A DNA stretch of 19,319 nucleotides from a virus. The notes beneath the pieces are model-generated. The model had not been told where the DNA came from and searched no databases. It saw only the letters and a program-made list of their open reading frames with translations. The position numbers and the translations under genes are program-made. Positions 1 to 19,319 of the stretch are shown here, piece after piece (the first letter of the stretch is position 1; each line of letters begins with the position of its first letter). The DNA is taken from the IMG/VR virus record IMGVR_UViG_3300045988_171920. The stretch is one strand, 5' to 3'.

Positions 1-76
1 TCCCTGTTTACAAAACTTCCCCACATGGTTACAATAACTACATGTTATTTAATCTAAACTAGGGCAGAAGATTTTC
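1..76. repeat. Left inverted terminal repeat (76 bp)
   Basis: nt 1-76 equal the reverse complement of 19244-19319 with one mismatch (nt 56 vs nt 19264). Identity stops at nt 77. Confidence 0.95.
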
Positions 77-102
77 ATAATACATCACACAGTGCCATAT
101 AA

Positions 103-133
103 TTTTTACATAAATATTCATCACATAGTATTG
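103..133 (+). promoter_or_regulatory. Subterminal conserved block TTTTTAC-N17-AGTATTG, inward-facing (promoter-like or origin-associated)
   Basis: ATAATTTTTACAT (99-111) and AGTATT (127-132) recur at the same spacing at the right end (19188-19222, - strand), although the surrounding sequence outside the ITR has diverged. Confidence 0.3.
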
Positions 134-151
134 TTAACTATATGCTTATAT

Positions 152-182
152 TGTTCACATTTTTTCTATCATATCGTATGCA
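152..182 (+). promoter_or_regulatory. Candidate promoter TGTTCAC-N16-CGTATGCAATAATT
   Basis: TGTTCAC at 152-158, 16-nt spacer, CGTAT at 175-179. Not embedded in a hairpin. Lies just upstream of the first micro-ORF RBS. Confidence 0.35.
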
Positions 183-201
183 ATAATTAAGAGGTGATTG
201 A

Positions 202-282
202 GTGGGAACATTATTATTTATTTTTATTGTTATTTATATTGTTATTCTTATTATTATGTTAGCAATATATGCATTATCATAA
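202..282 (+). CDS. Hydrophobic micro-protein, 26 aa (GTG start): GTLLFIFIVIYIVILIIMLAIYALS
   Basis: Hand-translated; below the ORF-track cutoff. SD AAGAGGTG lies 5 nt before the GTG. The peptide is almost entirely hydrophobic (one TM helix). Paralogous to 298-366. Confidence 0.35.
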   Translation: MGTLLFIFIVIYIVILIIMLAIYALS

Positions 283-297
283 TTAAGAGGTGATTAA

Positions 298-366
298 ATG
301 GAGATATTATTTTTTATTTTTATTGTTATTCTTTTTATAATTGTTTACCAATTCATCTATAAATAG
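298..366 (+). CDS. Hydrophobic micro-protein, 22 aa: MEILFFIFIVILFIIVYQFIYK
   Basis: Hand-translated. Same SD (AAGAGGTG) and same 5-nt spacing as 202-282. The 5' region is a direct repeat of the first unit (183-234 vs 279-330). Confidence 0.35.
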   Translation: MEILFFIFIVILFIIVYQFIYK

Positions 367-372
367 TATAAT
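342..372 (+). promoter_or_regulatory. Candidate promoter TGTTTAC-N16-AGTATAATATAA (also readable as TTTACC-N17-TATAAT)
   Basis: TATAAT at 367-372 and TTTACC at 344-349 with a 17-nt spacer. AGTATAATATAA is shared with the site at 585-596. Confidence 0.4.
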
Positions 373-431
373 ATAATTGAGCATAGTTCTATCCGACACT
401 TTTTCATTTTTTCTCCTTTCATTTATTTATA

Positions 432-1295: not shown

Positions 1296-1301
1296 TATTA
1301 A

Positions 1302-1332
1302 GGTAGACTTTATTGTCTACCTTTTATTTTTT
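1302..1332 (+). terminator. Rho-independent terminator
   Basis: GGTAGAC (1302-1308) pairs with GTCTACC (1315-1321), followed by TTTTATTTTTT. Confidence 0.8.
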
Positions 1333-1346
1333 CAATCGTATATAAT
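1314..1346 (+). promoter_or_regulatory. Candidate late promoter TGTCTAC-N16-CGTATATAATAATT
   Basis: TGTCTAC at 1314-1320, 16-nt spacer, CGTAT at 1337-1341, TATAAT at 1341-1346. Same architecture as the sites at 152, 2882 and 7261. Confidence 0.4.
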
Positions 1347-1510
1347 AATTGTAGTTTATAATACGTTGAATAATAATGCTACAAATACGTACCAAGGTGA
1401 AGAGCCTGTATTTGTAGGGTCGAAAGTGGTATTTCCGTTGTTAACATTTATAAATTGCATTTTTATTGAGTACCCAACGCACTACAAGGTGCATATTTGG
1501 GTATTCTATT
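1347..1510 (+). ncRNA. Highly structured leader or candidate non-coding RNA upstream of the scaffold gene
   Basis: A perfect 10-bp helix (1379-1388/1408-1417). A bipartite 10+4 bp hairpin (1468-1477/1497-1506 and 1479-1482/1489-1492). The region is locally more GC-rich by eye. No convincing ORF. Confidence 0.35.
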
Positions 1511-1538
1511 AAGAATTAATAAATTAAAAGGAGGAATA

Positions 1539-1814
1539 ATGATGGCATTTGAAAATTTGGAACAAGCTAACGATTACCAATTAAAAGCTGAAAAAGAAAT
1601 CGCAGATTTAAAGCAACAACTAGAAAGTCAAAAATCAGTTTTATCAGAAAAAGATGAAACAATTAAATCATATGATGAGCAAGTTAAGAAATTAAAAATT
1701 AAAAATTATGAATTATTTGAACAAGTTTCATCTAGTCCCGAACAAAATAAGTCTAAACCTCAAGATGCTCAACCTAAAATGAGTTATCAAGAGTTTTTAA
1801 ATAAAGTATTATAG
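1539..1814 (+). CDS. Scaffolding protein (phi29 gp7-like coiled coil)
   Basis: ~91 aa, acidic, coiled-coil, immediately upstream of the capsid gene. SD AAAGGAGG at 1527-1534 precedes ATGATG at 1539/1542. The track's TTG start at 1497 is judged less likely. Confidence 0.65.
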   Translation: MMAFENLEQANDYQLKAEKEIADLKQQLESQKSVLSEKDETIKSYDEQVKKLKIKNYELFEQVSSSPEQNKSKPQDAQPKMSYQEFLNKVL

Positions 1815-2902: not shown

Positions 2903-2912
2903 GTCGTATATG
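2882..2912 (+). promoter_or_regulatory. Candidate late promoter GGTGTAC-N16-CGTATATG
   Basis: GTGTAC at 2883-2888, 16-nt spacer, CGTAT at 2905-2909. It overlaps the terminator hairpin, so the spacing could reflect terminator geometry. Confidence 0.25.
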
Positions 2913-2934
2913 AAAAAGGAAAGGAAGTGAATTT

Positions 2935-4494
2935 ATGGCAAGACAAAGTACAATTTATTTATTCAATTGTTGGTTTTTAGATGTTGGTCATAATCATACA
3001 GTAAACTTTAACAATGAAACTAATCAATTGAATTTCTTCATGAATTATTTACAGTTTAGAATTGATAATTGCACATATTTAAGAAAAGAAAGAACTTTAA
3101 AAGTTCCAAAATATATTGATGAACTTGCATTATGCAATTATTGTGCATTTCAAAATTCAGTAGATGGTAAGATGGAATACTTTTTTATTTTAAATAAATC
3201 TTATCTATCAGAAAATGTAACAGAACTTACTTTAAAATTAGATGTAATACAAACTTATTGGTTTCAAATGAATTTTACAAAAATTAAATCACATATAGAT
3301 AGACAACATTTGTGGCGTTGGAATCAAGATGGGACAGTTGCAGATTATAATATGTTAGAAAATGAAGATTTTGAAATAGGAGAATATATATTACAAAATA
3401 GAACTCCACTTTATGATTATGAAAATAAAGGCGGTTATATTGTTACTAGTTCTGATAAATTATCTATAAAATATAGTGGTGACAGTGGAAGTGGCGGTAG
3501 TTCGACAAATCAATCAAACTTATATAAGGATAAGTTAGTATCAGCAAACGGTTTTTGGTTTATTAAACAAGTTGAGGGTTTTAGTTCTACCCCTTATAAT
3601 TTAGGTGATGGAACATATACAATAGGGTATGGAACTACAAGTGAGTTTGACTCTGAGCATTATAATCAACTTGCACCCGAGTGTACAGAGGAACAGGCAA
3701 GTAATGTGTTAGCAGAAAGTTTAAAGAAAAATTATTCAACATATGTTTATGATACATTTGTTAATTATGGTTTTGACATGAATAAAATGAAGCAACAACA
3801 TTTTGACGCATTTGTTAGTTTTTACTATAATACTGGTAGTTTATCAAGTAAAACAATTTTCACTAAATATATTAATGGAGATAGTCTTGAGAGTATTGCT
3901 GAGGTTTGGAAAACTACTAATATAATGACAGGGACTCAATTTGAGGAGGGGTTAAGAAATAGAAGAAAAGCTGAAGTAAATATATTTTTAAATGGAGAAT
4001 ACTACTATAAAGATATACCAAATTTAAACGGTGGAACAGTTACAGATAATGACGGAAAAGGCTACATTCCGGTTATGTTTAATAAATATGATACTCCAAC
4101 AAGTACAATAAGACAAAATATTATAAATAGTGCAAAGAAATTGATTGGATTACCTTATGTTTATGGTGGAAATTATCCTCCTTTGGGTAATAGTGCAGGT
4201 ACTGATTGTTCGGGTTTATGCCAATGGGCATATCATGATAATGGTATAAACATATCAAGAACAACATATACGCAAATTAAAGAGGGAAAAGAAGTAACTT
4301 TAGAAGAATGTAAACCGGGTGATTTAGTATTTACTAGAGGTACTAGTGATAATGGTCATGTTGTTATGTTCCATAGTTTTAATAGTGATGGTACAATTCA
4401 TGTAATTGAAGCTAAACAAACAGGTACAAATATAATGGAAAACGATAGAACACCTAATAGCGATTATCGTTATAGAAATTTATTAGGGGATTAA
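2935..4494 (+). CDS. Tail-associated cell-wall hydrolase: tail-knob (gp9-like) N-terminal domain + GH24-type lysozyme + NlpC/P60 peptidase
   Basis: aa 1-160 resemble the phi29 gp9 N-terminus from memory (..YCAFQN..G..YFFI.., LDVIQTYWF, RQHLWRWNQDGT). The middle has FIKQVEGFSSTPYNLGDGTYTIGYGTT (lysozyme). The C-terminus has GLPYVYGG...GTDCSGLCQWAY...GDLVF...GHVVMF (NlpC/P60 Cys/His). Confidence 0.8.
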   Translation: MARQSTIYLFNCWFLDVGHNHTVNFNNETNQLNFFMNYLQFRIDNCTYLRKERTLKVPKYIDELALCNYCAFQNSVDGKMEYFFILNKSYLSENVTELTLKLDVIQTYWFQMNFTKIKSHIDRQHLWRWNQDGTVADYNMLENEDFEIGEYILQNRTPLYDYENKGGYIVTSSDKLSIKYSGDSGSGGSSTNQSNLYKDKLVSANGFWFIKQVEGFSSTPYNLGDGTYTIGYGTTSEFDSEHYNQLAPECTEEQASNVLAESLKKNYSTYVYDTFVNYGFDMNKMKQQHFDAFVSFYYNTGSLSSKTIFTKYINGDSLESIAEVWKTTNIMTGTQFEEGLRNRRKAEVNIFLNGEYYYKDIPNLNGGTVTDNDGKGYIPVMFNKYDTPTSTIRQNIINSAKKLIGLPYVYGGNYPPLGNSAGTDCSGLCQWAYHDNGINISRTTYTQIKEGKEVTLEECKPGDLVFTRGTSDNGHVVMFHSFNSDGTIHVIEAKQTGTNIMENDRTPNSDYRYRNLLGD

Positions 4495-4506: not shown

Positions 4507-5757
4507 ATGGCAACAACTTCAAAAAATGAGCCGGATAGTACAATAATAAATAATATTACAGTTGGTTTATATTATTATTATGTTCCCAAGAACGGGGCAA
4601 GTGAAGCAACTTATTTGGGTTTTGTAAATACAATTGAAAGTGTAACTTATAATCCTTTTATAGATGAAGCTGATATATCAGACGTACGTAAAGCAATATT
4701 TGATACTGCACGTTATGGCAGTCCCGACGGGCAAATTCCATATGTAAAAAGAATTTGCTCATTTGATAAAATTAATTATCAACTAGGTAATACTCAACAA
4801 ATTTATCCTAATAAATCTAATTATAGTTATGATTTTGAGCCTAGAGTTTTATGTTATCCTTTTAGATACTTTTTAATCACTGATTATTCTTCTAATCCAA
4901 TGCTAATTAAACCCGAAAGAATAGAAGATAATGGGTCAAATCAATTTAAGGTTATGGTAAAAACTACTGCTATTAGTTCAGAAAGTAAGTATAATATTTA
5001 TGTTGATAATTATAAATATGATGATGAGGGAAACTTAGAGGGAATGTGCAATAGTACTGCATTAATGTTACCTGTTACTTCATCAGCATATAGCCAATTT
5101 TTAGCAACTTCCGCAAGTTCTTTTAATCAATCAGTTACTAATGCTTTACTAGAAAATGATTTAACATTAAAGCATAACACACAATCAAATAATATGAATT
5201 TTGCACAAAGCACTACAAATAATGCATTGTCTGCAATAGGGAATTTATTAAGTTTAAATTTTGGAGGATTAGCAAGTAATGCAAGTAACCTAGCTTTTGG
5301 ATATATGCAAAACCAATTGGCTAATACTCAAGCAAATGAAAATTCACAATTAAATGAACATAACATTATTAGCATGAAGAATGCAAAAGTTAATGATATG
5401 CTAACAACTCCTAATAGTATTAAAACCGCAGGGAATGACACACTTTTTAATTTAATTAATAGCAATCAAAGAGTTGATTTATTAGAATATAGATGTAATG
5501 TGCAACAAATGTCAAAGGCTCAAGAATATTTTAAACGTTATGGCTACAAAGTTAATGGCTATGATTATATAAATTTAACATGCAGAAAACATTATAATTA
5601 TGTAAAAACTAATGTGTGTAATATTGTAGGTGCAAGAATACCACATGAATACTTAGACGAAATTAAGAGTATTTTTAATAATGGTATTACAGTATGGCAC
5701 ATGGACAACGAGGGAACAACAATGTTTGAATATGATAATAACGCGGAGGTGTATTAG
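4507..5757 (+). CDS. Tail knob / distal tube protein (C-terminal two-thirds of a phi29 gp9-like protein)
   Basis: EPRVLCYPFRYFLITDY, SSAYSQFLA and the C-terminal YFKRYGYKVN...RKHYNYVKT...IFNNGITVWHMDN match remembered gp9 segments (ESKLMMYPYCVTEITDF; FFHKYGYKIN..FNYVQT..IFDNGITLWHTDN). Confidence 0.8.
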   Translation: MATTSKNEPDSTIINNITVGLYYYYVPKNGASEATYLGFVNTIESVTYNPFIDEADISDVRKAIFDTARYGSPDGQIPYVKRICSFDKINYQLGNTQQIYPNKSNYSYDFEPRVLCYPFRYFLITDYSSNPMLIKPERIEDNGSNQFKVMVKTTAISSESKYNIYVDNYKYDDEGNLEGMCNSTALMLPVTSSAYSQFLATSASSFNQSVTNALLENDLTLKHNTQSNNMNFAQSTTNNALSAIGNLLSLNFGGLASNASNLAFGYMQNQLANTQANENSQLNEHNIISMKNAKVNDMLTTPNSIKTAGNDTLFNLINSNQRVDLLEYRCNVQQMSKAQEYFKRYGYKVNGYDYINLTCRKHYNYVKTNVCNIVGARIPHEYLDEIKSIFNNGITVWHMDNEGTTMFEYDNNAEVY

Positions 5758-5758
5758 A

Positions 5759-6637
5759 ATGGGAATGACTCATAAACAAAAACAGGGATTAATGCAAGAA
5801 AGTAGAAATCAACATTTTAATTTATTATATAATAAGTATAAATTATTAGCTTTAAATATGTTTACATGGGAAAACCTACCCGAAACAATTAAACCAAGAT
5901 ATATTGAAAAATCTTTATTTCATTTTGGAAAAGCCATATTTGTTGATGATGATAATTTAGGCTTGATATGTGTTCCATGTGAATTTGCAGAAGAAATGAA
6001 TGTAAATTTTGAACACACAAAAGTAATTACTAGTGGCTATAATTATATTAATACTATTCCATATTTACATTCTAGTTGGAAAGATAAATGTCAATTAATT
6101 CTTAATAATGATTTAGGCTTTGGGACAGAGGATTATGTAATAGATTATGCAACAAAAATGATGGAGGTTGAAAGATGTATCAGAGCAAATATTAATCATC
6201 AAAAATTCCCTTGGTTTATCGAAACAACTCCCAACAACAAACAGACCATGCAAAAATTATTTCAAGAAGTCGATAATTTAGAGCCAGTTATATTTGGTAA
6301 TAAAGACTTAAATATTGAAAATGCAAGTGCAATAATGACTACAACTCCATACGTTGCTGATAAACTTAATGAATATAAATATGAACTTGAAAGAGAAATA
6401 TTAACATTCTTTGGATTAAATAATTCCTTTGAGAAAAAAGAAAGATTACTTGTTGATGAAGTTAACTCTAACAATGATTATATTAACAGAAATGTGGATA
6501 TCATGTTTGCTAATAGACAATCTGCATGTGAAGAACTTAACCAAAAATTTGGGCTTAATGTTAAAGTAACTAAAAACAATAATTTTGAAAATAGTTATGA
6601 CCAAGACGAAGAAGAGGAGGGAGAAATAGATGAGTAA
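5759..6637 (+). CDS. Portal / upper collar connector protein (phi29 gp10-like)
   Basis: MFTWENLPETIKPRYIEKSLFHFG, PYVADKLNEYK, FFGLNNSFEKKERLLVDEVNSNND and ELNQKFGLNVKV align with remembered gp10. Start moved to ATG 5759, behind SD GGAGGTG at 5745-5751. Confidence 0.9.
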   Translation: MGMTHKQKQGLMQESRNQHFNLLYNKYKLLALNMFTWENLPETIKPRYIEKSLFHFGKAIFVDDDNLGLICVPCEFAEEMNVNFEHTKVITSGYNYINTIPYLHSSWKDKCQLILNNDLGFGTEDYVIDYATKMMEVERCIRANINHQKFPWFIETTPNNKQTMQKLFQEVDNLEPVIFGNKDLNIENASAIMTTTPYVADKLNEYKYELEREILTFFGLNNSFEKKERLLVDEVNSNNDYINRNVDIMFANRQSACEELNQKFGLNVKVTKNNNFENSYDQDEEEEGEIDE

Positions 6638-7256
6638 AAATACAATAGAAATAAATCAATTAGTAAATGATTTAGATTTTAATCTATTTGATTTTGAATA
6701 CAATCTTTACGATAATGAATTAAAGGAAGTTTTCGAGAAAAAATTTATTGACCATTTCTATTTTTATGAAATTGGATTAACTCCTATTGCTAGATTTAAA
6801 AAGGCGTTGCAAATTAAATTAAATGATATTTACCCATATTATAAGCAACTTTATCAAACTGAATTAAGATGTAATGACATTGATTTTATGCTAAATAAAG
6901 ATTTAAAAGAATCTTATACAAGGGAATTAACAGGAAATAGTTCAGTAAATCAAAGTTCAACAAGTACAAGTAACGATACTAGTTTAAATATTAATAATGA
7001 TACTCCACAAAATAAAATTGATGATTTAGACAATTATATGACTAGTGCAAGTAAGAATACAGACAACTCAACAATGAGCAGTAATGGTACAAATAGTGCT
7101 GAAAACAATTCAACAGAAATATATAGTTTAATTTCTCAAGGTAATATTGGCGTAACTTCTTCCGCTGAATTATTAGAAAAGTGGAGAAATGTATTAATAA
7201 ATATTGACCAATTGATTTTTGAAGAATGCAACGATTTATTTATGTTAATTTACTAG
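6630..7256 (+). CDS. Lower collar / head-tail adaptor protein (phi29 gp11 position)
   Basis: Directly follows the portal gene and overlaps it by 8 nt. SD GAGGAGGG. 208 aa with an N/S/T-rich middle. Called mainly by synteny. Confidence 0.6.
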   Translation: MSKNTIEINQLVNDLDFNLFDFEYNLYDNELKEVFEKKFIDHFYFYEIGLTPIARFKKALQIKLNDIYPYYKQLYQTELRCNDIDFMLNKDLKESYTRELTGNSSVNQSSTSTSNDTSLNINNDTPQNKIDDLDNYMTSASKNTDNSTMSSNGTNSAENNSTEIYSLISQGNIGVTSSAELLEKWRNVLINIDQLIFEECNDLFMLIY

Positions 7257-7281
7257 GGCTTGTTTACTCAAGTCCTTTTTT
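7256..7281 (+). terminator. Rho-independent terminator
   Basis: GGGCTTG (7256-7262) pairs with CAAGTCC (7269-7275) with one G-U pair, followed by TTTTTT. Confidence 0.7.
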
Positions 7282-7292
7282 GTCGTTAGTAA
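7261..7292 (+). promoter_or_regulatory. Candidate late promoter TGTTTAC-N16-CGTTAGTAATAATT
   Basis: TGTTTAC at 7261-7267 (in the terminator loop), 16-nt spacer, CGT at 7284-7286, then AATAATT directly before the fibre RBS. Confidence 0.3.
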
Positions 7293-7312
7293 TAATTAGG
7301 AGGTGCATGTGC

Positions 7313-9331
7313 ATGAGTATTGATAAGATAAGAAATATTGGGCTTGATAAATTAGTTACACAAGTTTACGATTTTGATAGTTTAACAACAGATGAATTAA
7401 TGTGCAAATTTGCTCAAAAAATAAATATCATTATTGAACACTTTAAATATTTAGATGACAGATGTGATAATAGTGAAAAAAATCTAGAGTTAAAATTACA
7501 ATATTTATTAGGTCAAGGTTTAGAGGAACAAGTTGCAAAAAGATTATTAGAATTAATAAATAAGGGAACTATCGGGAAATTAATTAATGAAACTTTATTA
7601 AAAGATATTAACGATAAAGTTGATAATTTTAAAGTTGAAGTTAATGAAGAATTTGAACAAAAATTGGATAAAAATGGAATAGTTACAATGGCTAACATGG
7701 GGCAAGATGTTAAAGAAGCTTTTACAGGTGGAGCAGTTGCAGTTGTTGGTAGAAATAGTGTTTTAACTGAAAATATAGTTGATAACCAAGTAAATCAATA
7801 TAAAGTGGATTTTATAAATGAAGATAATAACTTATTAAGAAACGAGGGTCTTTTATTTAATAAAAATATTGATGTTAATTCGGGATTGACAATTGAAAGT
7901 AATGGATATGTAACTACCGATTTTATAAGCGTAGATTCAAGTACATTATATACGTTTAATTTTTATAAACTTGCACCTAATAATCCTGGGGCAACAGTTA
8001 TTTATTATAATTCTAATAAAACTATAATTTCAAATGAATTTGTAACTGAATTTAGTTTTACTACGTCAGAAAATTGTAAATATATTAGAATTAGTTTTCC
8101 TAACTACGATATTATAAAAATTAATAATACATTTTTATCAAAAGATACTACAAAAACTTCTCCTAAACTAAAAAATGAATATTTAGATGAAAGTTTTTTG
8201 AGTAATAATTTTGAAAATAATTTTGCTAAAAAAAATATAGAGCCTTTAAACTGTACTTTTTTCGATAAGGTTATTAATATAAAAGATATTGCACAGTTTG
8301 AAAAAAATAAAACTGTAAACCCTACTACTGGTGGTTTTGAAAGCTTTAGTGGTAGAACTATTTTAGGCTTTTATGATGTAAAATATGTTGACGCAATTAA
8401 TGTTAATACTGATACTACTATGTTTCTATATGATGAAAATAAAAATATATTAAGTTCTGTAAATGGTGGAAATATAATTAAAAGTGGAACAGTTATTCCT
8501 ATAACTCATAATACAAGTAATAATGATACTAGGTTTATTGTTATAGTTGCTCTTACTGTAGCCGATAGTGTTTTAAACGAAATAGTAATAAATCCATCAA
8601 TGTATATCTATGATGGCGTTGATAGATATTATTTAAAAGATAGTGTGATAAAAAGTTTAAGTAATTCTTCATTTTATAAAAATAAAAAAATAACTTGTTT
8701 TGGTGATAGTATAACTGCTCAAAATCAATGGCAACCTTGGGTGGCACAATACTTTAATTGTACAATGGTAAACAAAGGTGTTGGGGGTACAACTGTTTTC
8801 AATAATGGTAATAAAGAAGTTATAGAGGGAGAATTACGAGATAGTTGGATGTGTTCTGATGATAGAATTAATTTAATACCTACTGATTCAGATGTTATAC
8901 TTGTATTTGGAGGTCATAACGATTTTGGTTATAATAATTTAGAAATGGGTGTTTTAGGTGATGGAAACTTAATAGATAGCACATTTAAAAGTGCATATAG
9001 TTTAATGCTTAAAAAATTAGTAAATAAATTCCCTAACGCTCTTATTATAACTATGACTCCAGTTGGCGGTAGAACTGAAACAGAGAAAGGTAATAGTGAC
9101 AAACAATACTATATAAGAGATTTATGCATGACAGATTTTGCAAATGCCGTAAAAGAAGTTAGTGCATATTACGGTATTCCTTGTATAGACATAAACGGTG
9201 AAAGTCGTATTAGTACACTAAATCACGATACTTATATAGCTGATGTTATTCACGCTAATTCAGATGGTGGAAAATTAATAGCAAACGTCGTAATAAATGG
9301 AATGAAAAGATTTGAGCCAATAATATTTTAA
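7313..9331 (+). CDS. Tail fibre / appendage protein with C-terminal SGNH (GDSL) hydrolase domain
   Basis: Start at ATG 7313, 9 nt after GGAGG at 7299-7303. The N-terminus is a coiled fibre-shoulder type region (MANMGQDVKEAFTGGAVAVVG). The C-terminus carries the SGNH blocks CFGDSITA (GDS at 8702-8710), GVGGTT, GGHNDF and DVIHANSDG. Confidence 0.8.
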   Translation: MSIDKIRNIGLDKLVTQVYDFDSLTTDELMCKFAQKINIIIEHFKYLDDRCDNSEKNLELKLQYLLGQGLEEQVAKRLLELINKGTIGKLINETLLKDINDKVDNFKVEVNEEFEQKLDKNGIVTMANMGQDVKEAFTGGAVAVVGRNSVLTENIVDNQVNQYKVDFINEDNNLLRNEGLLFNKNIDVNSGLTIESNGYVTTDFISVDSSTLYTFNFYKLAPNNPGATVIYYNSNKTIISNEFVTEFSFTTSENCKYIRISFPNYDIIKINNTFLSKDTTKTSPKLKNEYLDESFLSNNFENNFAKKNIEPLNCTFFDKVINIKDIAQFEKNKTVNPTTGGFESFSGRTILGFYDVKYVDAINVNTDTTMFLYDENKNILSSVNGGNIIKSGTVIPITHNTSNNDTRFIVIVALTVADSVLNEIVINPSMYIYDGVDRYYLKDSVIKSLSNSSFYKNKKITCFGDSITAQNQWQPWVAQYFNCTMVNKGVGGTTVFNNGNKEVIEGELRDSWMCSDDRINLIPTDSDVILVFGGHNDFGYNNLEMGVLGDGNLIDSTFKSAYSLMLKKLVNKFPNALIITMTPVGGRTETEKGNSDKQYYIRDLCMTDFANAVKEVSAYYGIPCIDINGESRISTLNHDTYIADVIHANSDGGKLIANVVINGMKRFEPIIF

Positions 9332-10785: not shown

Positions 10786-11808
10786 ATGAAAGGAAGTGTT
10801 TTGTTCGTGGCTTGGTATAATTATGATAGAATTAATAGTTATAATGCAACTTTAAATTTTATACTAACAAACAGAGGTTTTGGTAAAACATTTGGTGCTA
10901 AGTGCAATGTAATAAAAAAGTTTTTAAAGAAAGGTGAACAATTTGTTTATGTAAGAAGATACAAAACAGAACTTAATGACATTCACAAATTTTTTGATTC
11001 ACCCGATTTAAGAAAAAAGTTTAAAACTCATACGTTTGAGGTAAAAGGAAAAACATTCTTTATAGATGGAAAAATTGCAGGTTATGCAATTGCTCTTTCC
11101 ACTTCCCAAAAATTAAAGTCAGTCGATTATCCTTTTGTAACTACAATTATCTTTGACGAGTTTATAGTTGATAAAGGTTGTATAAGATATCTAACAAATG
11201 AAGTTGACGTGTTTTTAGATTTATATGAAACAATAGCGAGAAAAAGAAATAATGTTAAAGCATATTTATTAGCTAATAATGTTTCTATAGTAAATCCATA
11301 CTTCACTTACTTTGATGTAACGCCCAAAAAGACAGAGCGATTTACAATTGCACGTGATGGTGAATTAGTTATTGAAATGTGTACAGATACTGTATTTATT
11401 AATGAAAAACTAGAAACAAAATTCGGTAAACTTATTAAAGGGACAAAATATGCAGACTATTCAATTTATAATAATTCATTGAGAGATAGTGAAGTGTTTA
11501 TAGAAAAAAGACCAAAGCGAAATACTTCTCCTGTTATGAGTATAGTTTTTAATGGTGAAAGGGCTATGATATGGCTTGACTATAAAACAGGTATATTTTA
11601 CTGTGATGACAAATACATGAAAACTTGTAATGAATATGTATTAAGTTGTGAAGACCATAATCCAAATACATTGTTAAATGCAAGTGGAATTAATCTTAAT
11701 ATGTTAAAACAATTAATTTCATATTTCCAAGTTGGAAGAGTAAGATTTTCAGACCAAAATATTAAACATTTAATGTATGATATATTTAGAAGTTTAGGGG
11801 TAAAATAA
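10786..11808 (+). CDS. DNA encapsidation (packaging) ATPase, phi29 gp16-like
   Basis: LNFILTNRGFGKTF (Walker A), GEQFVYVRRYK, FFIDGKIAGYAI, TIIFDEF (Walker B), NVSIVNPYF and SEVFIEKR align closely with remembered gp16. ATG 10786 has no SD. The true start may be TTG 10801 or GTG 10807, behind AAAGGAAG. Confidence 0.93.
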   Translation: MKGSVLFVAWYNYDRINSYNATLNFILTNRGFGKTFGAKCNVIKKFLKKGEQFVYVRRYKTELNDIHKFFDSPDLRKKFKTHTFEVKGKTFFIDGKIAGYAIALSTSQKLKSVDYPFVTTIIFDEFIVDKGCIRYLTNEVDVFLDLYETIARKRNNVKAYLLANNVSIVNPYFTYFDVTPKKTERFTIARDGELVIEMCTDTVFINEKLETKFGKLIKGTKYADYSIYNNSLRDSEVFIEKRPKRNTSPVMSIVFNGERAMIWLDYKTGIFYCDDKYMKTCNEYVLSCEDHNPNTLLNASGINLNMLKQLISYFQVGRVRFSDQNIKHLMYDIFRSLGVK

Positions 11809-11833: not shown

Positions 11834-12397
11834 TTATATTATTTCTCTTATTTCTTTTTCGTGTTCTCTTAATCTCTTCCTTATCCTTGAAAGAATTGTT
11901 TTTGTTCCATTATATTTTGCTCCAAATTTATTACTTATTTCTTCAATGGTATAACCTTGGCAATACATTTTGAAATATTCTTTGTGTCTTTCGTTTTTAA
12001 TAAATTCGCAAACTTTATCAATTGTTTCGTTTATATCTTCGTATTCATCTTCAGATTGAATAACGTTGTGTAAACTCATTTCATTTTCATTTTTATAACC
12101 ATCAATTTCTTGATCTAAAAATACTAAATTATCATAAACTTTTCTTTTTTCTCTTCTTTCAACTTTTAAAACATCATAAACCCCATTTTTTATTACTTTT
12201 GCTATGAATGTATTTAACCCTGCGATTTCTTCATCATATTGATTTATAGCAAATGCGACTTTTGCTTCACATATTTGAAGTACATCTTCAAATTCTACTC
12301 TATCATGATATTTTACTAAAATACTATTATAATATTTATAAGTCATACCCTTTAAATATCCATCACCATATTGATTAATATAATCTTCATATTTCAT
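11834..12397 (-). CDS. Sigma-70 family RNA polymerase sigma factor (small, ECF/TcdR-like size)
   Basis: 187 aa. A region-2-like segment (EFEDVLQICEAKVAFAINQYDE...NTFIAKVIKNGVYDVLKVERREKR) and a region-4 HTH (KEYFKMYCQGYTIEEISNKFGAKYNGTKTILSRIRKRLRE). It is the last gene of the replication operon. Confidence 0.75.
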   Translation of the reverse strand: MKYEDYINQYGDGYLKGMTYKYYNSILVKYHDRVEFEDVLQICEAKVAFAINQYDEEIAGLNTFIAKVIKNGVYDVLKVERREKRKVYDNLVFLDQEIDGYKNENEMSLHNVIQSEDEYEDINETIDKVCEFIKNERHKEYFKMYCQGYTIEEISNKFGAKYNGTKTILSRIRKRLREHEKEIREII

Positions 12398-12411: not shown

Positions 12412-14541
12412 CTAAAATAAATAATAACTATTTGAAATTTTATAAGGTTGCTCTTGTATAAGTGTACCACCTTTTATAATCTTTGATTTCTTAGATTTAA
12501 TTAACCCTACTATTTTCTTTGTGCATTCTTTGTCATAATAATAATACACATCATTTTCTTTTGTGAATAATTTCATCTTTTTTAATTCCTTACTTGAATG
12601 TGGGCAATTATCAAACACATCAATATCATCAACTTGTTTCATTATACTGTCTGTTAAACCACAACACTTAATTTCCCATTTATGAGTTTCTGCATTCTTT
12701 TCTGCATAACGTTTACTACCAATATATTTAAAATCTTCAAAGCATAACTCGTTATCCCAGTAACCATATATTTTGGTACCAATGTTAACTCCCTTAACTT
12801 CTTCAAGTGTTCCATATAAATGTAAACTATCTGTATCGCAATATAAAAATCTTTCATAATTTGCATTAATTGCTTGAACTAAATATTGTTTTGCATAACT
12901 TGTAATAAATGTTGCCATAGGTAAATAAATATTATCTGAAACATATTCATCATGTAAATGATTAATTGTAAATATTCCGTCTTTATTTTCAAACTCTGTA
13001 ATTTCATTTGAGCCACTCATGCCGAATTTACCGTACAGTCCATTTTGTCGAAGTTTTGCAATAGCCCTATTTGCTCCTGTACTATTCTTTTTTACTTCAC
13101 TCCAAAAATCTATATAATTTTTAAATAAATCATGAGTACCAGTAAATGCCATATGACCTCCAAGTTCATAAGAGTAAACATTATAACATTCAAATAATAA
13201 CTCTAGCAATGGATTACATAATCTAAAAGTTAATGTTACTTTTTCACCGTCTTTTACATTATTCTTTAAAATTTCACGACCATTAAAGTTTGGATTGTCC
13301 TTAACTTGTAAGAATGCCATCTTATTTTCTTTTACTTCAAAGTCATAAATAGTAATTTCTTGAATATAAAGTGGAAAACATTTCTTATAACTTTCATTCA
13401 TTTTGCACCACGGAATTTCCTTAAAGTTTGCTTGTCCGTATGGTAGCAATCTATCACTCATTATATAAGGATAAAGTGAATTAACATCTAAAACTATACC
13501 ATTATGATTTTCACATTTTTTAAATTTTTCTACATTTTCAAAACATACTGTGCTTAGTCCCCCGTAATAACTATGTCTTTGCCACGCGTCAGTAAAGTAA
13601 GATTGTTTTGGAAATAAGCATTCAAAAATTATTTGCTTCTTTAATGATGGTTTATTGGTTTGAAAAAATTTTGTCCTCATTAAACCATTGTCTACATAAT
13701 CATATAAATCTTGATTTTTAAACATATTTTGTTTTAAAGTGTAATCCTCAAGAACTGTTTCTTTATAATCTTCCAATGATTGTCCACTATTTGTTAATTT
13801 AGTATAAATCACATGCTTTCCATTAATATCAAGTCCATCAATTTTTAACATTTTTACTAAATAACTTAATCCGTAAACATCGTTATAAATATAACTTAAT
13901 TCTTCTTTAGATAATAAATCATCAATGCTTCTTTCCTTTTCATAATCTAGCCCGTCTTTTGGTAAATGTAAATTAAGAAAATCAGCACAACATTTTTGTA
14001 AACTAAATGGGGCAATTTTAAAAGTATCATAAAAATTAATTGTTACATCATCACCATGTAAAGTTAACTTATAAAACACTCCATCTTTCATTACTAAATT
14101 ATATTCAAAAGGTTTTAGTTTTGTTTTATTCTTAACAGTAAATTTTAGTTTCTCTTTTTTCTTATTGTAAAAATCATAACATTGTCTTTCATAATATTCG
14201 TCAACTCTTTGTTTCGCATTATCTTGTTCTGTAAACCATAAAATAAATGGTTTAATATCATATAAAGCATTATGAGCAAATAAATTAATTGTTTTCTTTT
14301 TAATAGATAATAAATCATTCATAAAACTATCTACTGTTCTATAATGATAACAAATATCTGTATTGTTATCACATGACATTAATGCAATAGAATAAGTTAA
14401 CATTTCATTCTTTTCTTTTAAATAACATGCTTCTATATCAAAAGCAAAATTTTGTATATTATCATAATCGGGAATAGTCCTATAAGAATAATAATTGTCT
14501 AAATTCTCTGTTATATTTTTTAACCTCACATTTAAATCCAT
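12412..14541 (-). CDS. Protein-primed family-B DNA polymerase
   Basis: Exo I FDIEA, Exo II NALYDIKP, Exo III YIYNDVYG, motif A DVNSLYPY, motif B KLRQNGLYGKFG, motif C YCDTDS, KxY (SKRY). Start moved to ATG 14541, 6 nt after AGAGGTG. The track starts at GTG 14550. Confidence 0.95.
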   Translation of the reverse strand: MDLNVRLKNITENLDNYYSYRTIPDYDNIQNFAFDIEACYLKEKNEMLTYSIALMSCDNNTDICYHYRTVDSFMNDLLSIKKKTINLFAHNALYDIKPFILWFTEQDNAKQRVDEYYERQCYDFYNKKKEKLKFTVKNKTKLKPFEYNLVMKDGVFYKLTLHGDDVTINFYDTFKIAPFSLQKCCADFLNLHLPKDGLDYEKERSIDDLLSKEELSYIYNDVYGLSYLVKMLKIDGLDINGKHVIYTKLTNSGQSLEDYKETVLEDYTLKQNMFKNQDLYDYVDNGLMRTKFFQTNKPSLKKQIIFECLFPKQSYFTDAWQRHSYYGGLSTVCFENVEKFKKCENHNGIVLDVNSLYPYIMSDRLLPYGQANFKEIPWCKMNESYKKCFPLYIQEITIYDFEVKENKMAFLQVKDNPNFNGREILKNNVKDGEKVTLTFRLCNPLLELLFECYNVYSYELGGHMAFTGTHDLFKNYIDFWSEVKKNSTGANRAIAKLRQNGLYGKFGMSGSNEITEFENKDGIFTINHLHDEYVSDNIYLPMATFITSYAKQYLVQAINANYERFLYCDTDSLHLYGTLEEVKGVNIGTKIYGYWDNELCFEDFKYIGSKRYAEKNAETHKWEIKCCGLTDSIMKQVDDIDVFDNCPHSSKELKKMKLFTKENDVYYYYDKECTKKIVGLIKSKKSKIIKGGTLIQEQPYKISNSYYLF

Positions 14542-14552
14542 ATATTTCACCT

Positions 14553-19187: not shown

Positions 19188-19218
19188 TAATACTAGTTAA
19201 TACAATTACATGTAAAAA
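19188..19218 (-). promoter_or_regulatory. Subterminal conserved block TTTTTAC-N17-AGTATTA, inward-facing (right-end copy)
   Basis: Read on the - strand: TTTTTAC (19218-19212), 17 nt spacer, AGTATTA (19194-19188). Mirrors block 103-133. Confidence 0.3.
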
Positions 19219-19243
19219 TTATTGGAACTGTTTCATATAGTGC

Positions 19244-19319
19244 GAAAATCTTCTGCCCTAGTTAAGATTAAATAACATGTAGTTATTGTAACCATGTGGG
19301 GAAGTTTTGTAAACAGGGA
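19244..19319. repeat. Right inverted terminal repeat (76 bp)
   Basis: Reverse complement of nt 1-76. The window ends exactly at the repeat boundary. Confidence 0.95.

What the first reader, a model, noticed from the sequence alone, without database searches (positions are those of the whole stretch)
1347..1510. Strongly structured ~160-nt RNA between a terminator/promoter junction and the scaffold gene: regulatory leader or pRNA-like RNA
- The 245-nt gap between the SSB-operon terminator (1302-1332) and the scaffold gene has no convincing ORF. It is visibly more GC-rich than its surroundings.
- It folds into a perfect 10-bp helix, 1379-1388 with 1408-1417.
- It also folds into a bipartite hairpin: 1468-1477 with 1497-1506 (10 bp, one G-U), and an inner 1479-1482 with 1489-1492.
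- Both hairpins display the same sequence, UAC(C)AAGGUG (1390-1399 and 1483-1491), which resembles a Shine-Dalgarno sequence.
- The second copy, with the TTG at 1497, forms a sequestered SD/start pair in frame with the scaffold ORF.
- Bacillus phi29-family phages need a ~120-174 nt packaging RNA (pRNA). To my knowledge none has been defined outside that group.
- This genome has a clear gp16-type ATPase and a gp10-type portal, so an RNA of this size deserves testing as a pRNA analogue.
- The alternative is a translational or antitermination leader controlling scaffold and capsid expression.
Basis: partly seen in the sequence, partly recalled or inferred. Interest (0 to 1): 0.65.

Follow-up and report, generated by a model that had tools for sequence, protein, structure and literature searches.

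The report
Packaging-RNA look-alike in a gut phage
A small gut phage related to phi29 encodes, just ahead of its capsid genes, a conserved folded RNA built like phi29's DNA-packaging RNA, a molecule so far reported only in Bacillus phages.

Summary
Window 1350-1459 (+) folds into a three-way junction. It has a long helix joining the 5' and 3' ends. The other arm is a short hairpin. An 8-nt U-rich linker and a second hairpin (1468-1506) follow.

The RNA starts just after a TATAAT box and heads the scaffold/capsid operon of a complete 19.3-kb phi29-like genome. Homologues sit at the same place in relatives whose capsid proteins are only 35-65% identical. Cultured Clostridium perfringens phages (CPS2, phiCPV4, phiQ) carry the same architecture at that position. 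Every helix shows compensatory changes.

The bulge and the short-hairpin loop stay complementary while their sequences change in 11 lineages (none of 200,000 permutations matched this). This is phi29 pRNA's layout, down to the position of the pairing bases. Rfam's pRNA model does not match, the genome position differs, and function is untested.

The TTG start and Shine-Dalgarno sequestration idea is not supported.

Best reading: a packaging-RNA analogue (confidence about 0.6). Main rival: a cis-acting leader of the late operon.

The parts
1300..1333 (+). Intrinsic terminator of the upstream SSB operon (stem 1300-1323, then a T-run)
   Evidence: the sequence
1336..1346 (+). Promoter-like element TCGTATATAAT (-10 box TATAAT at 1341-1346) with no good -35. 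It lies 4-7 nt upstream of the first paired base of the RNA.
   Evidence: A -10-like box sits at the same distance in every lineage. A similar TCGTATAT motif follows the capsid-gene terminator at 2904. That it acts as a promoter is inferred.
1350..1459 (+). Domain I of the RNA: the whole three-way-junction fold (110 nt)
   Evidence: MFE folds. Covariance model R1 recovers homologues at 27-54 bits in relatives. Invariant G-U pairs fix the strand as +.
1350..1374 (+). A helix, 5' strand: outer 12 bp (1350-1361), internal loop UAC (1362-1364), inner 9 bp with bulged A1370 (1365-1374)
   Evidence: It is invariant within the close group and covaries between lineages (helices 1-2: 17 of 23 pairs changed on both sides).
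1437..1459 (+). A helix, 3' strand (1437-1445 inner, AU 1446-1447, 1448-1459 outer)
1379..1388 (+).
   Evidence: 5 of 10 pairs have changes on both sides within the close group, and 100% of cells are paired. In the second group 4 of 10 pairs do.
1408..1417 (+). C helix, 3' strand
1389..1394 (+). Bulge GUACCA on the 5' side only (equivalent to the CE or right-hand loop of pRNA). UACCA 1390-1394 is complementary to 1427-1431.
1395..1407 (+). E stem-loop AGG[UGAAGAG]CCU. The loop is nearly invariant in groups G1-G4. The closing pair covaries (A-U, U-A, C-G, G-C).
1422..1435 (+). D hairpin GAAA[GUGGUA]UUUC. Loop bases UGGUA (1427-1431) pair with the bulge.
1460..1467 (+). U-rich single-stranded linker UUUUUAUU between domain I and the second hairpin
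   Evidence: A U-rich linker is conserved in group G2.
1468..1506 (+). Second hairpin (domain-II-like): outer 10 bp plus inner 5 bp. The stems covary.
   Evidence: 2 pairs changed on both sides in G2. It is absent in group G5.
1508..1516 (+). Conserved AUUAAGAAU just after the second hairpin. Function unknown; a processing site or weak terminator tail is possible.
   Evidence: Similar AUUAA motifs occur in L105 and CPS2.
1527..1814 (+). Ribosome-binding site AAAGGAGG (1527-1534) and the scaffold gene (ATG 1539/1542 to 1814), the first gene of the operon headed by the RNA
5681..6637 (+). gp10-type portal (connector), the expected docking partner if the RNA is a packaging RNA. The true start is probably near 5758 (MGMTHKQKQ...).
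   Evidence: Pfam Phage_connector, E = 1.4e-54
10786..11808 (+). gp16-type packaging ATPase, the expected partner of the A helix
   Evidence: Pfam Podovirus_Gp16, E = 2.1e-86, covering residues 10-337 of 340

Best explanation
Window 1350-1506 encodes a structured non-coding RNA that is the counterpart, in this gut phi29-like phage, of phi29's prohead (packaging) RNA.

**Proposed steps (all inferred from the sequence):**
- It is transcribed from the -35-less promoter at 1336-1346, as the first ~110-160 nt of the scaffold/capsid transcript.
- It is then either released by processing near the second hairpin and the AUUAAGAAU motif, or ended there.

**Fold (shown here).** Domain I is a three-way junction.
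- The 5' and 3' ends form the long A helix.
- The C arm carries a bulge on its 5' side and the conserved E stem-loop.
- The D arm is a short hairpin.

**Proposed mechanism (by analogy with phi29, not shown here).**
- The bulge (UACCA) of one molecule pairs with the D loop (UGGUA) of the next. This closes a ring of RNAs around the portal of the empty prohead.
- The conserved E loop and bulge region bind the portal and capsid.
- The A helices project outward as spokes and dock the gp16-type ATPase, which then packages the protein-primed genome.

**Status of each step.** Shown here: the fold, its conservation, its covariation, and the co-evolving bulge-loop pairing. Inferred: transcription start, processing, intermolecular rather than intramolecular pairing, prohead binding, and any role in packaging.
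For: **1. Structure.** z = -3.97 for 1347-1510. Sequences from different lineages fold independently into the same three-way junction.

**2. Conservation.** Covariance model R1 finds the RNA upstream of the first late gene in relatives whose capsid protein is 35-65% identical to the window's. They come from at least three IMG/VR samples and many ENA gut assemblies.

**3. Covariation.**
- Close group, natural ungapped alignment: 98.7% of cells paired, against 33-48% with slid partners. Five of 10 C-helix pairs changed on both sides.
- Second group, natural alignment: 98.5% paired.
- All 35 distinct sequences, hand-fitted alignment: 38 of 47 pairs changed on both sides, 98.4% paired.

**4. Bulge and D loop co-evolve.** The pairing sequences are UACCA/UGGUA, UGCAA/UUGCA, CACAA/UUGUG, UAUC/GAUA, GUCA/UGAC, UAACU/AGUUA, GCUA/UAGC, AUAC/GUAU, UAGCA/UGCUA and GCCA/UGGC. 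The summed cognate Watson-Crick run is 48. Permuted partners give 28.8 +/- 2.9, with a maximum of 43 in 200,000 permutations.

**5. Same anatomy as phi29 pRNA** (Rfam structure line; review PMC5066667).
- The ends are paired in an A helix.
- The bulge is on the 5' side only, between the C and E helices.
- The pairing bases are the last bases of the bulge, abutting the E stem, and the 3' part of the D loop.
- A bulge or internal loop sits on the 5' strand 7-9 bp below the junction. In phi29 the CCA bulge is 8 bp below.
- A linker and a second hairpin follow, like domain II.

**6. One structural descriptor** finds exactly one site in the window (1371-1443). It also finds exactly one in the whole phi29 genome, the true pRNA at 222-300 on the minus strand.

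**7. Partners and exclusivity.** The genome has the gp10 portal and gp16 ATPase. No other pRNA candidate was found.

**8. Pattern of constraint.** Junction strands vary in length and sequence. The E loop and the pairing bases are the most constrained. This fits a protein- and RNA-contact surface rather than a ligand pocket.

**9. Not tied to one gene.** The gene downstream is an amidase in L108. A 114-nt repeat array separates the RNA from the ribosome-binding site in L013.
Against: - No sequence or profile similarity to known pRNAs. Rfam RF00044 gives no hit at E <= 10, while it scores phage Nf's pRNA at 47 bits. Model R1 does not hit phi29, B103 or GA-1.
- The location differs. Bacillus pRNAs are separate early transcripts near the left genome end. 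This RNA is the leader of the late operon.
- No convincing intrinsic terminator follows it. In group G5 it ends only 15-20 nt before a ribosome-binding site. A free RNA would therefore need processing.
- The D helix is only 3-4 bp, against 6 bp in phi29.
- Sequence alone cannot tell an intermolecular bulge-loop contact from an intramolecular pseudoknot.
- The descriptor is not very specific: 0.08 hits per shuffled genome, and 6 hits in 471 kb of unrelated contigs. It was designed knowing both RNAs, and it misses the B103, Nf and GA-1 pRNAs.
- The broad alignment was fitted by hand to the structure.
Confidence: 0.6

Rival explanations
1. The RNA is a cis-acting leader of the late operon. It stays on the mRNA. 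It might act on the transcribing polymerase, as a processive antitermination element like the put RNAs of phage HK022 or the B. subtilis EAR element (these two examples are from my own knowledge, not checked here). Or it might protect the 5' end of the message, or bind a phage protein that tunes late expression. On this reading the bulge-loop pairing is an intramolecular pseudoknot that compacts the fold.
For: - It always lies directly downstream of a promoter-like box and upstream of the first late gene.
- No clear terminator follows it. In group G5 it abuts the ribosome-binding site.
- A terminator-like hairpin lies inside the operon after the capsid gene, at 2879-2902. An antiterminator could override it.
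- Pairing of the 5' end in the A helix would protect against 5' exonucleases (general knowledge of Gram-positive mRNA decay, not tested here).
Against: - The internal terminator is followed by a second copy of the TCGTATAT promoter-like motif, so read-through is not obviously needed.
- A stabiliser or antiterminator does not explain the match to pRNA: the 5'-side bulge, the register of the pairing bases, the A-helix bulge, and the linker plus second hairpin.
- The distance to the first gene, and the identity of that gene, both vary. This argues against gene-specific translational control.
- No Rfam family of leaders or antiterminators matches.
Confidence: 0.28
2. The RNA is a metabolite- or ion-sensing riboswitch. 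A three-way junction with a tertiary loop contact, as in purine riboswitches (my own knowledge, not checked here), would gate expression of the scaffold and capsid genes.
For: - It is a three-way junction with a covarying long-range loop contact, located in a 5' leader.
- In CPS2 the closing helix is short (7 bp). A downstream segment can pair with the Shine-Dalgarno sequence in the MFE fold.
Against: - The junction strands, where ligands usually bind, vary freely in length and sequence between lineages.
- The closing helix is 21-26 bp in most lineages, too stable to switch.
- No conserved terminator or Shine-Dalgarno-sequestering platform exists. In the window the Shine-Dalgarno sequence is not sequestered.
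- No Rfam riboswitch matches.
Confidence: 0.04
3. The region encodes a small protein (ORF 1366-1512), or an N-terminal extension of the scaffold protein starting at TTG 1497 and controlled by a sequestered Shine-Dalgarno/start pair.
For: Both ORFs exist mechanically, and TTG 1497 is in frame with the scaffold gene.
Against: - Substitutions are paired compensatory changes in helices, not a codon-position pattern.
- L006 has a 1-nt deletion inside both ORFs. The spacing between 1497 and the true ATG changes frame among close relatives.
- The true start has a strong, conserved AAAGGAGG ribosome-binding site.
- In CPS2 the equivalent region is annotated as a 40-aa CDS, but it is unannotated in sister phages.
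Confidence: 0.02

Closest known systems
Prohead/packaging RNA (pRNA) of Bacillus phi29-like phages (Rfam RF00044; phi29, PZA, M2/Nf, B103, SF5, GA-1 and others)
   Same: - The host genome type is the same: a small protein-primed podovirus with a gp10 portal and a gp16 ATPase.
- Domain I is about 110-120 nt, and the 5' and 3' ends form the A helix.
- It is a three-way junction. The C helix is 9-10 bp, followed by a bulge on the 5' side only and a 3-4 bp E stem with a 5-7 nt purine-rich loop. The D arm is a hairpin.
- There are 4-5 Watson-Crick complementary bases between the 3' end of the bulge and the 3' part of the D loop, and they covary between lineages.
- A bulge or internal loop sits on the 5' strand of the A helix about 8 bp below the junction.
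- A single-stranded linker and a further hairpin lie 3' of domain I.
   Different: - There is no detectable sequence or covariance-model similarity.
- It is encoded at the head of the late scaffold/capsid operon, in the same orientation as the late genes. Bacillus pRNAs are separate early transcripts near the left genome end.
- It has no terminator of its own.
- The D helix is shorter (3-4 bp against 6 bp).
- The A helix is only 7-8 bp in the Clostridium perfringens phage versions.
- Prohead binding, ring formation and a role in packaging are untested.
Processive antitermination RNAs (phage HK022 putL/putR; B. subtilis EAR).
   Same: Structured RNA placed immediately downstream of a promoter at the start of a long operon that contains an internal terminator-like site.
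   Different: put RNAs are two stem-loops without a closing helix or a covarying loop-loop contact. No Rfam family matched the region, at gathering scores or at E <= 10. The internal terminator here is followed by its own promoter-like motif.
Three-way-junction riboswitches with loop-loop contacts (for example the purine riboswitch). This comparison rests on my own knowledge.
   Same: A three-way junction in a 5' leader with a tertiary contact between two arms.
   Different: The contact here is bulge-to-loop rather than loop-to-loop. The junction is not conserved. The closing helix is very long. There is no expression platform.

Membership tests
phi29-type prohead RNA (pRNA) | Encoded by a phi29-like phage that has a gp10-type portal, a gp16-type ATPase and protein-primed replication | tested here: met
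   Pfam hits: Phi29_MCP, Phage_connector, Podovirus_Gp16, phi29_gp9_C and DNA_pol_B_2. The genome has 106-nt inverted terminal repeats.
phi29-type prohead RNA (pRNA) | Domain I secondary structure: an A helix made by the 5' and 3' ends; a three-way junction; a C helix, a bulge on the 5' side and an E stem-loop; a D hairpin | tested here: met
   MFE folds of several lineages. Covariation counts. Comparison with the Rfam structure line for phi29. A common descriptor hits only the true pRNA in phi29 and only this RNA in the window.
phi29-type prohead RNA (pRNA) | Complementarity between the CE (right-hand) bulge and the D (left-hand) loop that covaries between phages | tested here: met
   11 lineages with 10 different pairing sequences. 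The cognate sum is 48, against 28.8 +/- 2.9 for permuted partners, and none of 200,000 permutations reached it. The kissing helix is 95.3% paired, with 5 of 6 pairs changed on both sides.
phi29-type prohead RNA (pRNA) | The bulge-loop pairing is intermolecular and builds a pentameric or hexameric ring | not testable with these tools
   Sequence cannot separate an intermolecular contact from an intramolecular one. It needs native gels or trans-complementation of loop mutants.
phi29-type prohead RNA (pRNA) | Matches the curated covariance model (Rfam RF00044) | tested here: not met
   No hit at gathering score or at E <= 10. The model is narrow: phi29 scores 145 bits, while the bona fide Nf pRNA scores 47 bits against a gathering score of 100.
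phi29-type prohead RNA (pRNA) | A separate early transcript with its own promoter and terminator, near the left genome end | tested here: not met
   Here it lies 1.35 kb from the left end, at the head of the late scaffold/capsid operon, and no terminator-like site follows it. For phi29, Nf and GA-1.
phi29-type prohead RNA (pRNA) | Domain II: a further hairpin domain after a single-stranded linker | tested here: inconclusive
   A linker plus a covarying hairpin is present in groups G1-G4, and a weaker one in CPS2. It is absent in group G5 and in phiQ. Homology to phi29 domain II cannot be shown.
phi29-type prohead RNA (pRNA) | Binds proheads, is needed for DNA packaging, and is absent from mature virions | not testable with these tools
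   Experimental property.
Processive antitermination RNA (put/EAR type) | Acts in cis on RNA polymerase to read through downstream terminators | not testable with these tools
   Only the context could be examined. A terminator-like site lies at 2879-2902, followed by a promoter-like motif at 2904. No Rfam family matched.

The most novel reading that the evidence does not exclude
Packaging RNA is not a peculiarity of Bacillus phages. It would be an ancestral or at least widespread part of the phi29-type packaging motor. In phi29-like phages of Clostridia, both gut metagenomic lineages and the cultured C. perfringens phages CPS2, phiCPV4 and phiQ, it is made as the 5' leader of the late scaffold/capsid transcript. 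It has escaped notice because its sequence has diverged beyond the reach of existing models.
Probability: 0.5. Interest if true: 0.88.

Novelty: new variant of a known kind. Interest (0 to 1): 0.8.

Why it matters
- **It would overturn a stated uniqueness.** Reviews state that pRNA is unique to phi29 and its Bacillus relatives (PMC5066667, PMC11476376). A 2025 structure-based search added 12 pRNAs; all the phage names it lists look like Bacillus phages, and it mentions no Clostridium, Streptococcus, Staphylococcus or Enterococcus phage (PMC12670572).
- **It affects a working assumption.** The asccphi28 motor was chosen as a model system partly because its genome showed 'no evidence for a pRNA' (PMC7823558).
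- **It makes an old question testable.** A pRNA-type RNA in lineages whose capsid proteins are only about 31% identical to phi29's would bear on whether the RNA is an ancient part of this motor or a late Bacillus-phage invention.
- **It would supply new material.** There would be about ten new natural kissing-loop specificities and new three-way junctions for RNA nanotechnology.
- **It would show a different expression strategy,** as the leader of the late operon.
- **It can be tested directly,** because the same architecture is present in cultured C. perfringens phages.
- **The rival would also be new.** If the cis-acting reading is right instead, this is still an undescribed, widely conserved leader RNA class of phi29-like phages.

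Tried and rejected
- **Rfam.** Rfam 15 on the whole window at gathering scores and at E <= 10, and on 1200-1700 at E <= 10, gave only noise such as snoRNA models and MicX.
- **Whole-genome megablast** against phage records found no match.
- **DNA-pattern scan of IMG/VR** for GTAGTT...GGTGAAGAGCC returned 67 stretches. Only those from sample 3300045988 were real; the rest were chance and served as a negative set.
- **The same pattern with a third anchor on GTDB genomes** gave six chance hits, none confirmed by model R1. There is therefore no host clue.
- **R1 on phi29, B103, GA-1, asccphi28, CPS2 and phiQ** gave no cross-detection.
- **The MAFFT alignment of both groups (A1)** put A-helix gaps in structurally inconsistent places. 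I used ungapped within-group alignments instead, plus an N-padded hand alignment that MAFFT left unchanged.
- **The structural descriptor** misses groups G3 and G5, phiQ, and the Nf, B103 and GA-1 pRNAs. It has a measurable false-positive rate. It shows shared architecture but is not a detector.
- **L110** (capsid protein 32% identical) has a G+C-rich 220-nt region with its own terminator upstream of its scaffold gene. A single sequence gave no interpretable fold.
- **Rejected readings:** the TTG 1497 start with Shine-Dalgarno sequestration, the small ORF 1366-1512, and a riboswitch. Reasons are given under the rival explanations.
- **Not attempted:** a broad covariance model from the N-padded alignment. 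The padding would distort the deletion states.
Full report
**What the window is.** The 19,319-base window is a complete linear genome with 106-nt inverted terminal repeats (1-106 with 19214-19319, 89% complementary). It is a phi29-like podovirus. Pfam finds the following:
- a phi29-type major capsid protein (1830-2873);
- a tail knob;
- a gp10-type portal (5681-6637);
- a gp16-type packaging ATPase (10786-11808);
- a protein-primed family-B polymerase (12412-14550, minus strand);
- an SSB (640-1011).

No phage record matches at the DNA level. The capsid protein is at most about 32% identical to any deposited phage; the nearest are Clostridium, Arthrobacter and Bacillus phi29-likes. Close relatives come from human-gut metagenomes.

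**Checking the observation.** The terminator (1300-1333), the 243-nt gap before the scaffold gene, the raised G+C, the 10-bp helix 1379-1388/1408-1417 and the bipartite hairpin 1468-1506 are all present. So are the two UAC(C)AAGGUG copies and the in-frame TTG at 1497. Region 1347-1510 folds at -46.6 kcal/mol, z = -3.97, and none of 200 dinucleotide shuffles does as well.

- The 5' end (1350-1374) pairs with 1437-1459 in a long, interrupted helix.
- That helix encloses the 10-bp helix and a second small hairpin, 1422-1435.
- Together they form a three-way junction.

**Relatives and covariation.** Anchoring on the capsid protein gave 18 IMG/VR loci. An alignment-based search gave more distant ones, and a further search gave 38 metagenome contigs. 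A covariance model built from the ten closest sequences (R1) finds the RNA at the same place in the following:
- the 61-64%-identity group, at 48-54 bits;
- L102 (65%, from a different sample) and L105/L107 (45%), at about 37 bits;
- L132 (58%), at 27.6 bits;
- L109 (36%), more weakly, at E = 0.049.

L108, L134 and L136 (36-38%) carry the same element, recognised by eye and by motif.

Within the close group almost all variation in domain I sits in the C helix and the closing pair of the E stem, and it is compensatory.
- In the natural ungapped alignment 98.7% of cells are paired, against 33-48% when partners are slid.
- Five of 10 C-helix pairs change on both sides.
- The E closing pair is A-U, C-G or U-A.

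The second group gives the same picture: 98.5% paired, four C-helix pairs and two second-hairpin pairs changed on both sides.

For all 35 distinct sequences I fitted an alignment by hand. I padded segments with N so that MAFFT left it untouched. It gives 98.4% paired, and 38 of 47 pairs changed on both sides. That alignment leans towards the structure by construction. The two within-group alignments do not.

Invariant G-U pairs in the A helix fix the strand as plus.

**The bulge-loop contact.** The six-base bulge GUACCA (1389-1394) ends in UACCA. This is complementary to UGGUA in the loop of the small hairpin (1427-1431). In other lineages both sequences differ but stay complementary:

| Lineage | Bulge / loop |
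|---|---|
| L012 group | UGCAA / UUGCA |
| L105 | CACAA / UUGUG |
| L132 | UAUC / GAUA |
| L109 | GUCA / UGAC |
| L108 | UAACU / AGUUA |
| L134 | GCUA / UAGC |
| L136 | AUAC(U) / (G)GUAU |
| phiQ | UAGCA / UGCUA |
| CPS2 | GCCA / UGGC |

L102 keeps the window's loop with a C-to-U wobble in the bulge. Over 11 lineages the summed longest Watson-Crick run between cognate bulge and loop is 48. Permuting the partners gives 28.8 +/- 2.9. The maximum in 200,000 permutations was 43 (nine lineages gave p of about 1e-5). In every lineage but one (L132, where the register is one base off) the pairing bases are the last bases of the bulge, directly abutting the E stem. In the loop they lie in the 3' part.

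**Comparison with phi29 pRNA.** I ran Rfam on the left end of phi29 to obtain the curated structure line. In order, it reads:
1. A helix from the two ends;
2. one junction base;
3. a 9-bp C helix;
4. a 9-nt bulge on the 5' side only;
5. a 4-bp E stem with a 6-nt loop;
6. no bulge on the 3' side;
7. a UUU junction;
8. a 6-bp D stem with a 5-nt loop;
9. return to the A helix.

The window RNA has the same order and the same asymmetry. Counting along the phi29 sequence (confirmed 100% identical to the genome), the complementary bases are A45-C48 and G82-U85. A45-C48 are the last four bases of the bulge, next to the E stem. G82-U85 are the last four bases of the D loop. This is the same register as here.

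phi29's CCA bulge, needed for ATPase binding and packaging (PMC5066667), lies 8 bp below the junction on the 5' strand. The window has UAC 9 bp plus one bulged base below the junction. Most lineages have a bulge or internal loop on the 5' strand 7-9 bp below it.

phi29 pRNA has a 13-nt linker and a dispensable domain II (PMC5066667). Here an 8-nt U-rich linker and a covarying hairpin follow domain I in groups G1-G4.

I wrote a structural descriptor that encodes only these generic features. On both strands it gives:
- exactly one hit in the window (1371-1443);
- exactly one in the whole phi29 genome, the real pRNA;
- one in the CPS2 genome.

Its limits should be stated. It gives 0.08 hits per shuffled window and six hits in 471 kb of unrelated viral contigs. 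It misses the Nf, B103 and GA-1 pRNAs and two of my own lineages. I designed it knowing both RNAs.

**What does not fit.** Rfam's pRNA model finds nothing in the window at E <= 10. The model is narrow: the genuine Nf pRNA scores 47 bits against a gathering score of 100. Even so, it does detect Nf and does not detect this RNA. My model R1 does not detect Bacillus pRNAs either. Homology in the strict sense is therefore not shown.

Bacillus pRNAs are separate early transcripts near the left end, with their own promoter and terminator. This RNA lies between a -35-less promoter-like box (TCGTATATAAT, 1336-1346) and the scaffold gene. No terminator-like site follows it. In the G5 lineages it ends 15-20 nt before a ribosome-binding site. 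A free RNA would therefore have to be cut out of the late transcript. The conserved AUUAAGAAU after the second hairpin could mark such a site, but that is a guess.

- The TTG 1497 extension is frame-broken in relatives. L006 has a 1-nt deletion in the hairpin.
- The GGUG of the second 'SD-like' copy is a covarying stem strand.
- The true start keeps a strong AAAGGAGG site that is not sequestered.
- L013 and L017 carry an array of 16-nt tandem repeats (114 nt in L013) between the RNA and the ribosome-binding site.
- In L108 the first gene after the RNA is an N-acetylmuramoyl-L-alanine amidase, not the scaffold gene.

The RNA is therefore linked to the head of the late transcription unit, not to the translation of one gene. 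A cis role at the level of transcription or mRNA stability cannot be excluded, and it is my main rival. It does not, however, explain the detailed match to pRNA.

A riboswitch is unlikely. The junction strands vary freely, while the E loop and the pairing bases are the constrained parts.

**Cultured phages.** The same architecture lies upstream of the scaffold gene of C. perfringens phage CPS2, at about 1385-1457. There it is annotated as a 40-aa hypothetical CDS. It is also present in phiCPV4, phiZP2, CPQ3 and CPQ9, where the region is unannotated. Three pairs change on both sides among five sequences.

Phage phiQ and two IMG/VR contigs carry a G5-type version. It shares the AUUAAAA internal loop and the GUGAAA E loop. 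Compensatory changes, read by eye, affect the A, C, D and E helices. The hypothesis can therefore be tested directly in the laboratory.

**Literature.**
- Reviews from 2016 and 2024 describe pRNA as unique to phi29 and related Bacillus phages (PMC5066667, PMC11476376).
- The paper on C. perfringens podoviruses mentions pRNA only as the partner of the encapsidation protein and does not identify one (PMC3362512).
- The asccphi28 work states there is no evidence for a pRNA in that genome (PMC7823558).
- A 2025 Infernal-based search reported 12 new pRNAs. All the phage names it lists look like Bacillus phages, and it has no mention of Clostridium, Streptococcus, Staphylococcus or Enterococcus (PMC12670572).
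- I found no report of a pRNA-like RNA outside Bacillus phages in the library searched.

**Verdict.** The most likely identity is a packaging-RNA analogue (confidence about 0.6). A cis-acting late-operon leader is the main alternative (about 0.28). By architecture it works like a pRNA. It fails two membership tests, the Rfam model and the genomic position and expression mode. The decisive functional features cannot be tested here. I therefore file it as a new variant of a known kind rather than a member of the Rfam family.

Noticed in passing
window 1-106 and 19214-19319: 106-nt inverted terminal repeats (89% complementary). The window is a complete linear phi29-like genome.
   Followed up: partly
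window 11834-12397 (-): A 187-aa ORF with weak matches to ECF sigma factor and to sigma-70 regions 2 and 4. A phage-encoded sigma factor could explain why the promoter ahead of the RNA lacks a -35 box.
   Followed up: partly
window 174-186, 1336-1348, 2904-2916 (+): The motif TCGTAT(A/G)(T/C)... recurs. Two copies sit directly after intrinsic terminators (the SSB operon terminator and the capsid-gene terminator 2879-2902). It may be a phage-specific promoter class forming terminator/promoter junctions.
   Followed up: partly
window 202-282 and 298-366 (+): Two tandem tiny ORFs (26 and 22 aa) encode very hydrophobic peptides: VGTLLFIFIVIYIVILIIMLAIYALS and MEILFFIFIVILFIIVYQFIYK. Each is preceded by the same ATAATTAAGAGGTGATT ribosome-binding sequence.
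   Followed up: no
L013 3574-3687 (also L017): An array of 16-nt tandem repeats (TATACTCATTTACGAG, 7.1 copies in L013) is inserted between the RNA's second hairpin and the scaffold ribosome-binding site.
   Followed up: partly
L150 (Clostridium phage CPS2, NC_048707) 1337-1459: The annotated hypothetical CDS gp05 overlaps the conserved structured RNA. The same region is unannotated in phiCPV4, phiZP2 and the CPQ phages, so the CDS is probably a mis-annotation.
   Followed up: partly
L150 (CPS2) about 575-700: A second promoter-proximal non-coding stretch, upstream of gp03, contains GGAGG[UGAAA]CCUCC preceded by a 7-nt bulge. This resembles the E arm of the RNA family. The fold is not significant on its own (z = -0.88).
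   Followed up: no
L159 (Lactococcus phage asccphi28, NC_010363) 23-378 (-) and the mirror copy in the right repeat: The 577-bp terminal repeats carry an annotated promoter (P1) and terminator (T1) with no CDS between them. This would give a roughly 300-nt non-coding transcript pointing to the genome end, as phi29 pRNA does. The descriptor did not hit it.
   Followed up: no
L110 2484-2706: A more distant relative (capsid protein 32% identical) has a G+C-rich 220-nt non-coding region with its own strong terminator upstream of its scaffold gene. It may be a different or further diverged RNA.
   Followed up: partly
window 7226-9331 and 2935-4494 (+): The 701-aa tail protein ends in a GDSL lipase/acylhydrolase domain. 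The 519-aa protein combines a caudoviral tail N-terminal domain with lysozyme and NlpC/P60 domains.
   Followed up: no
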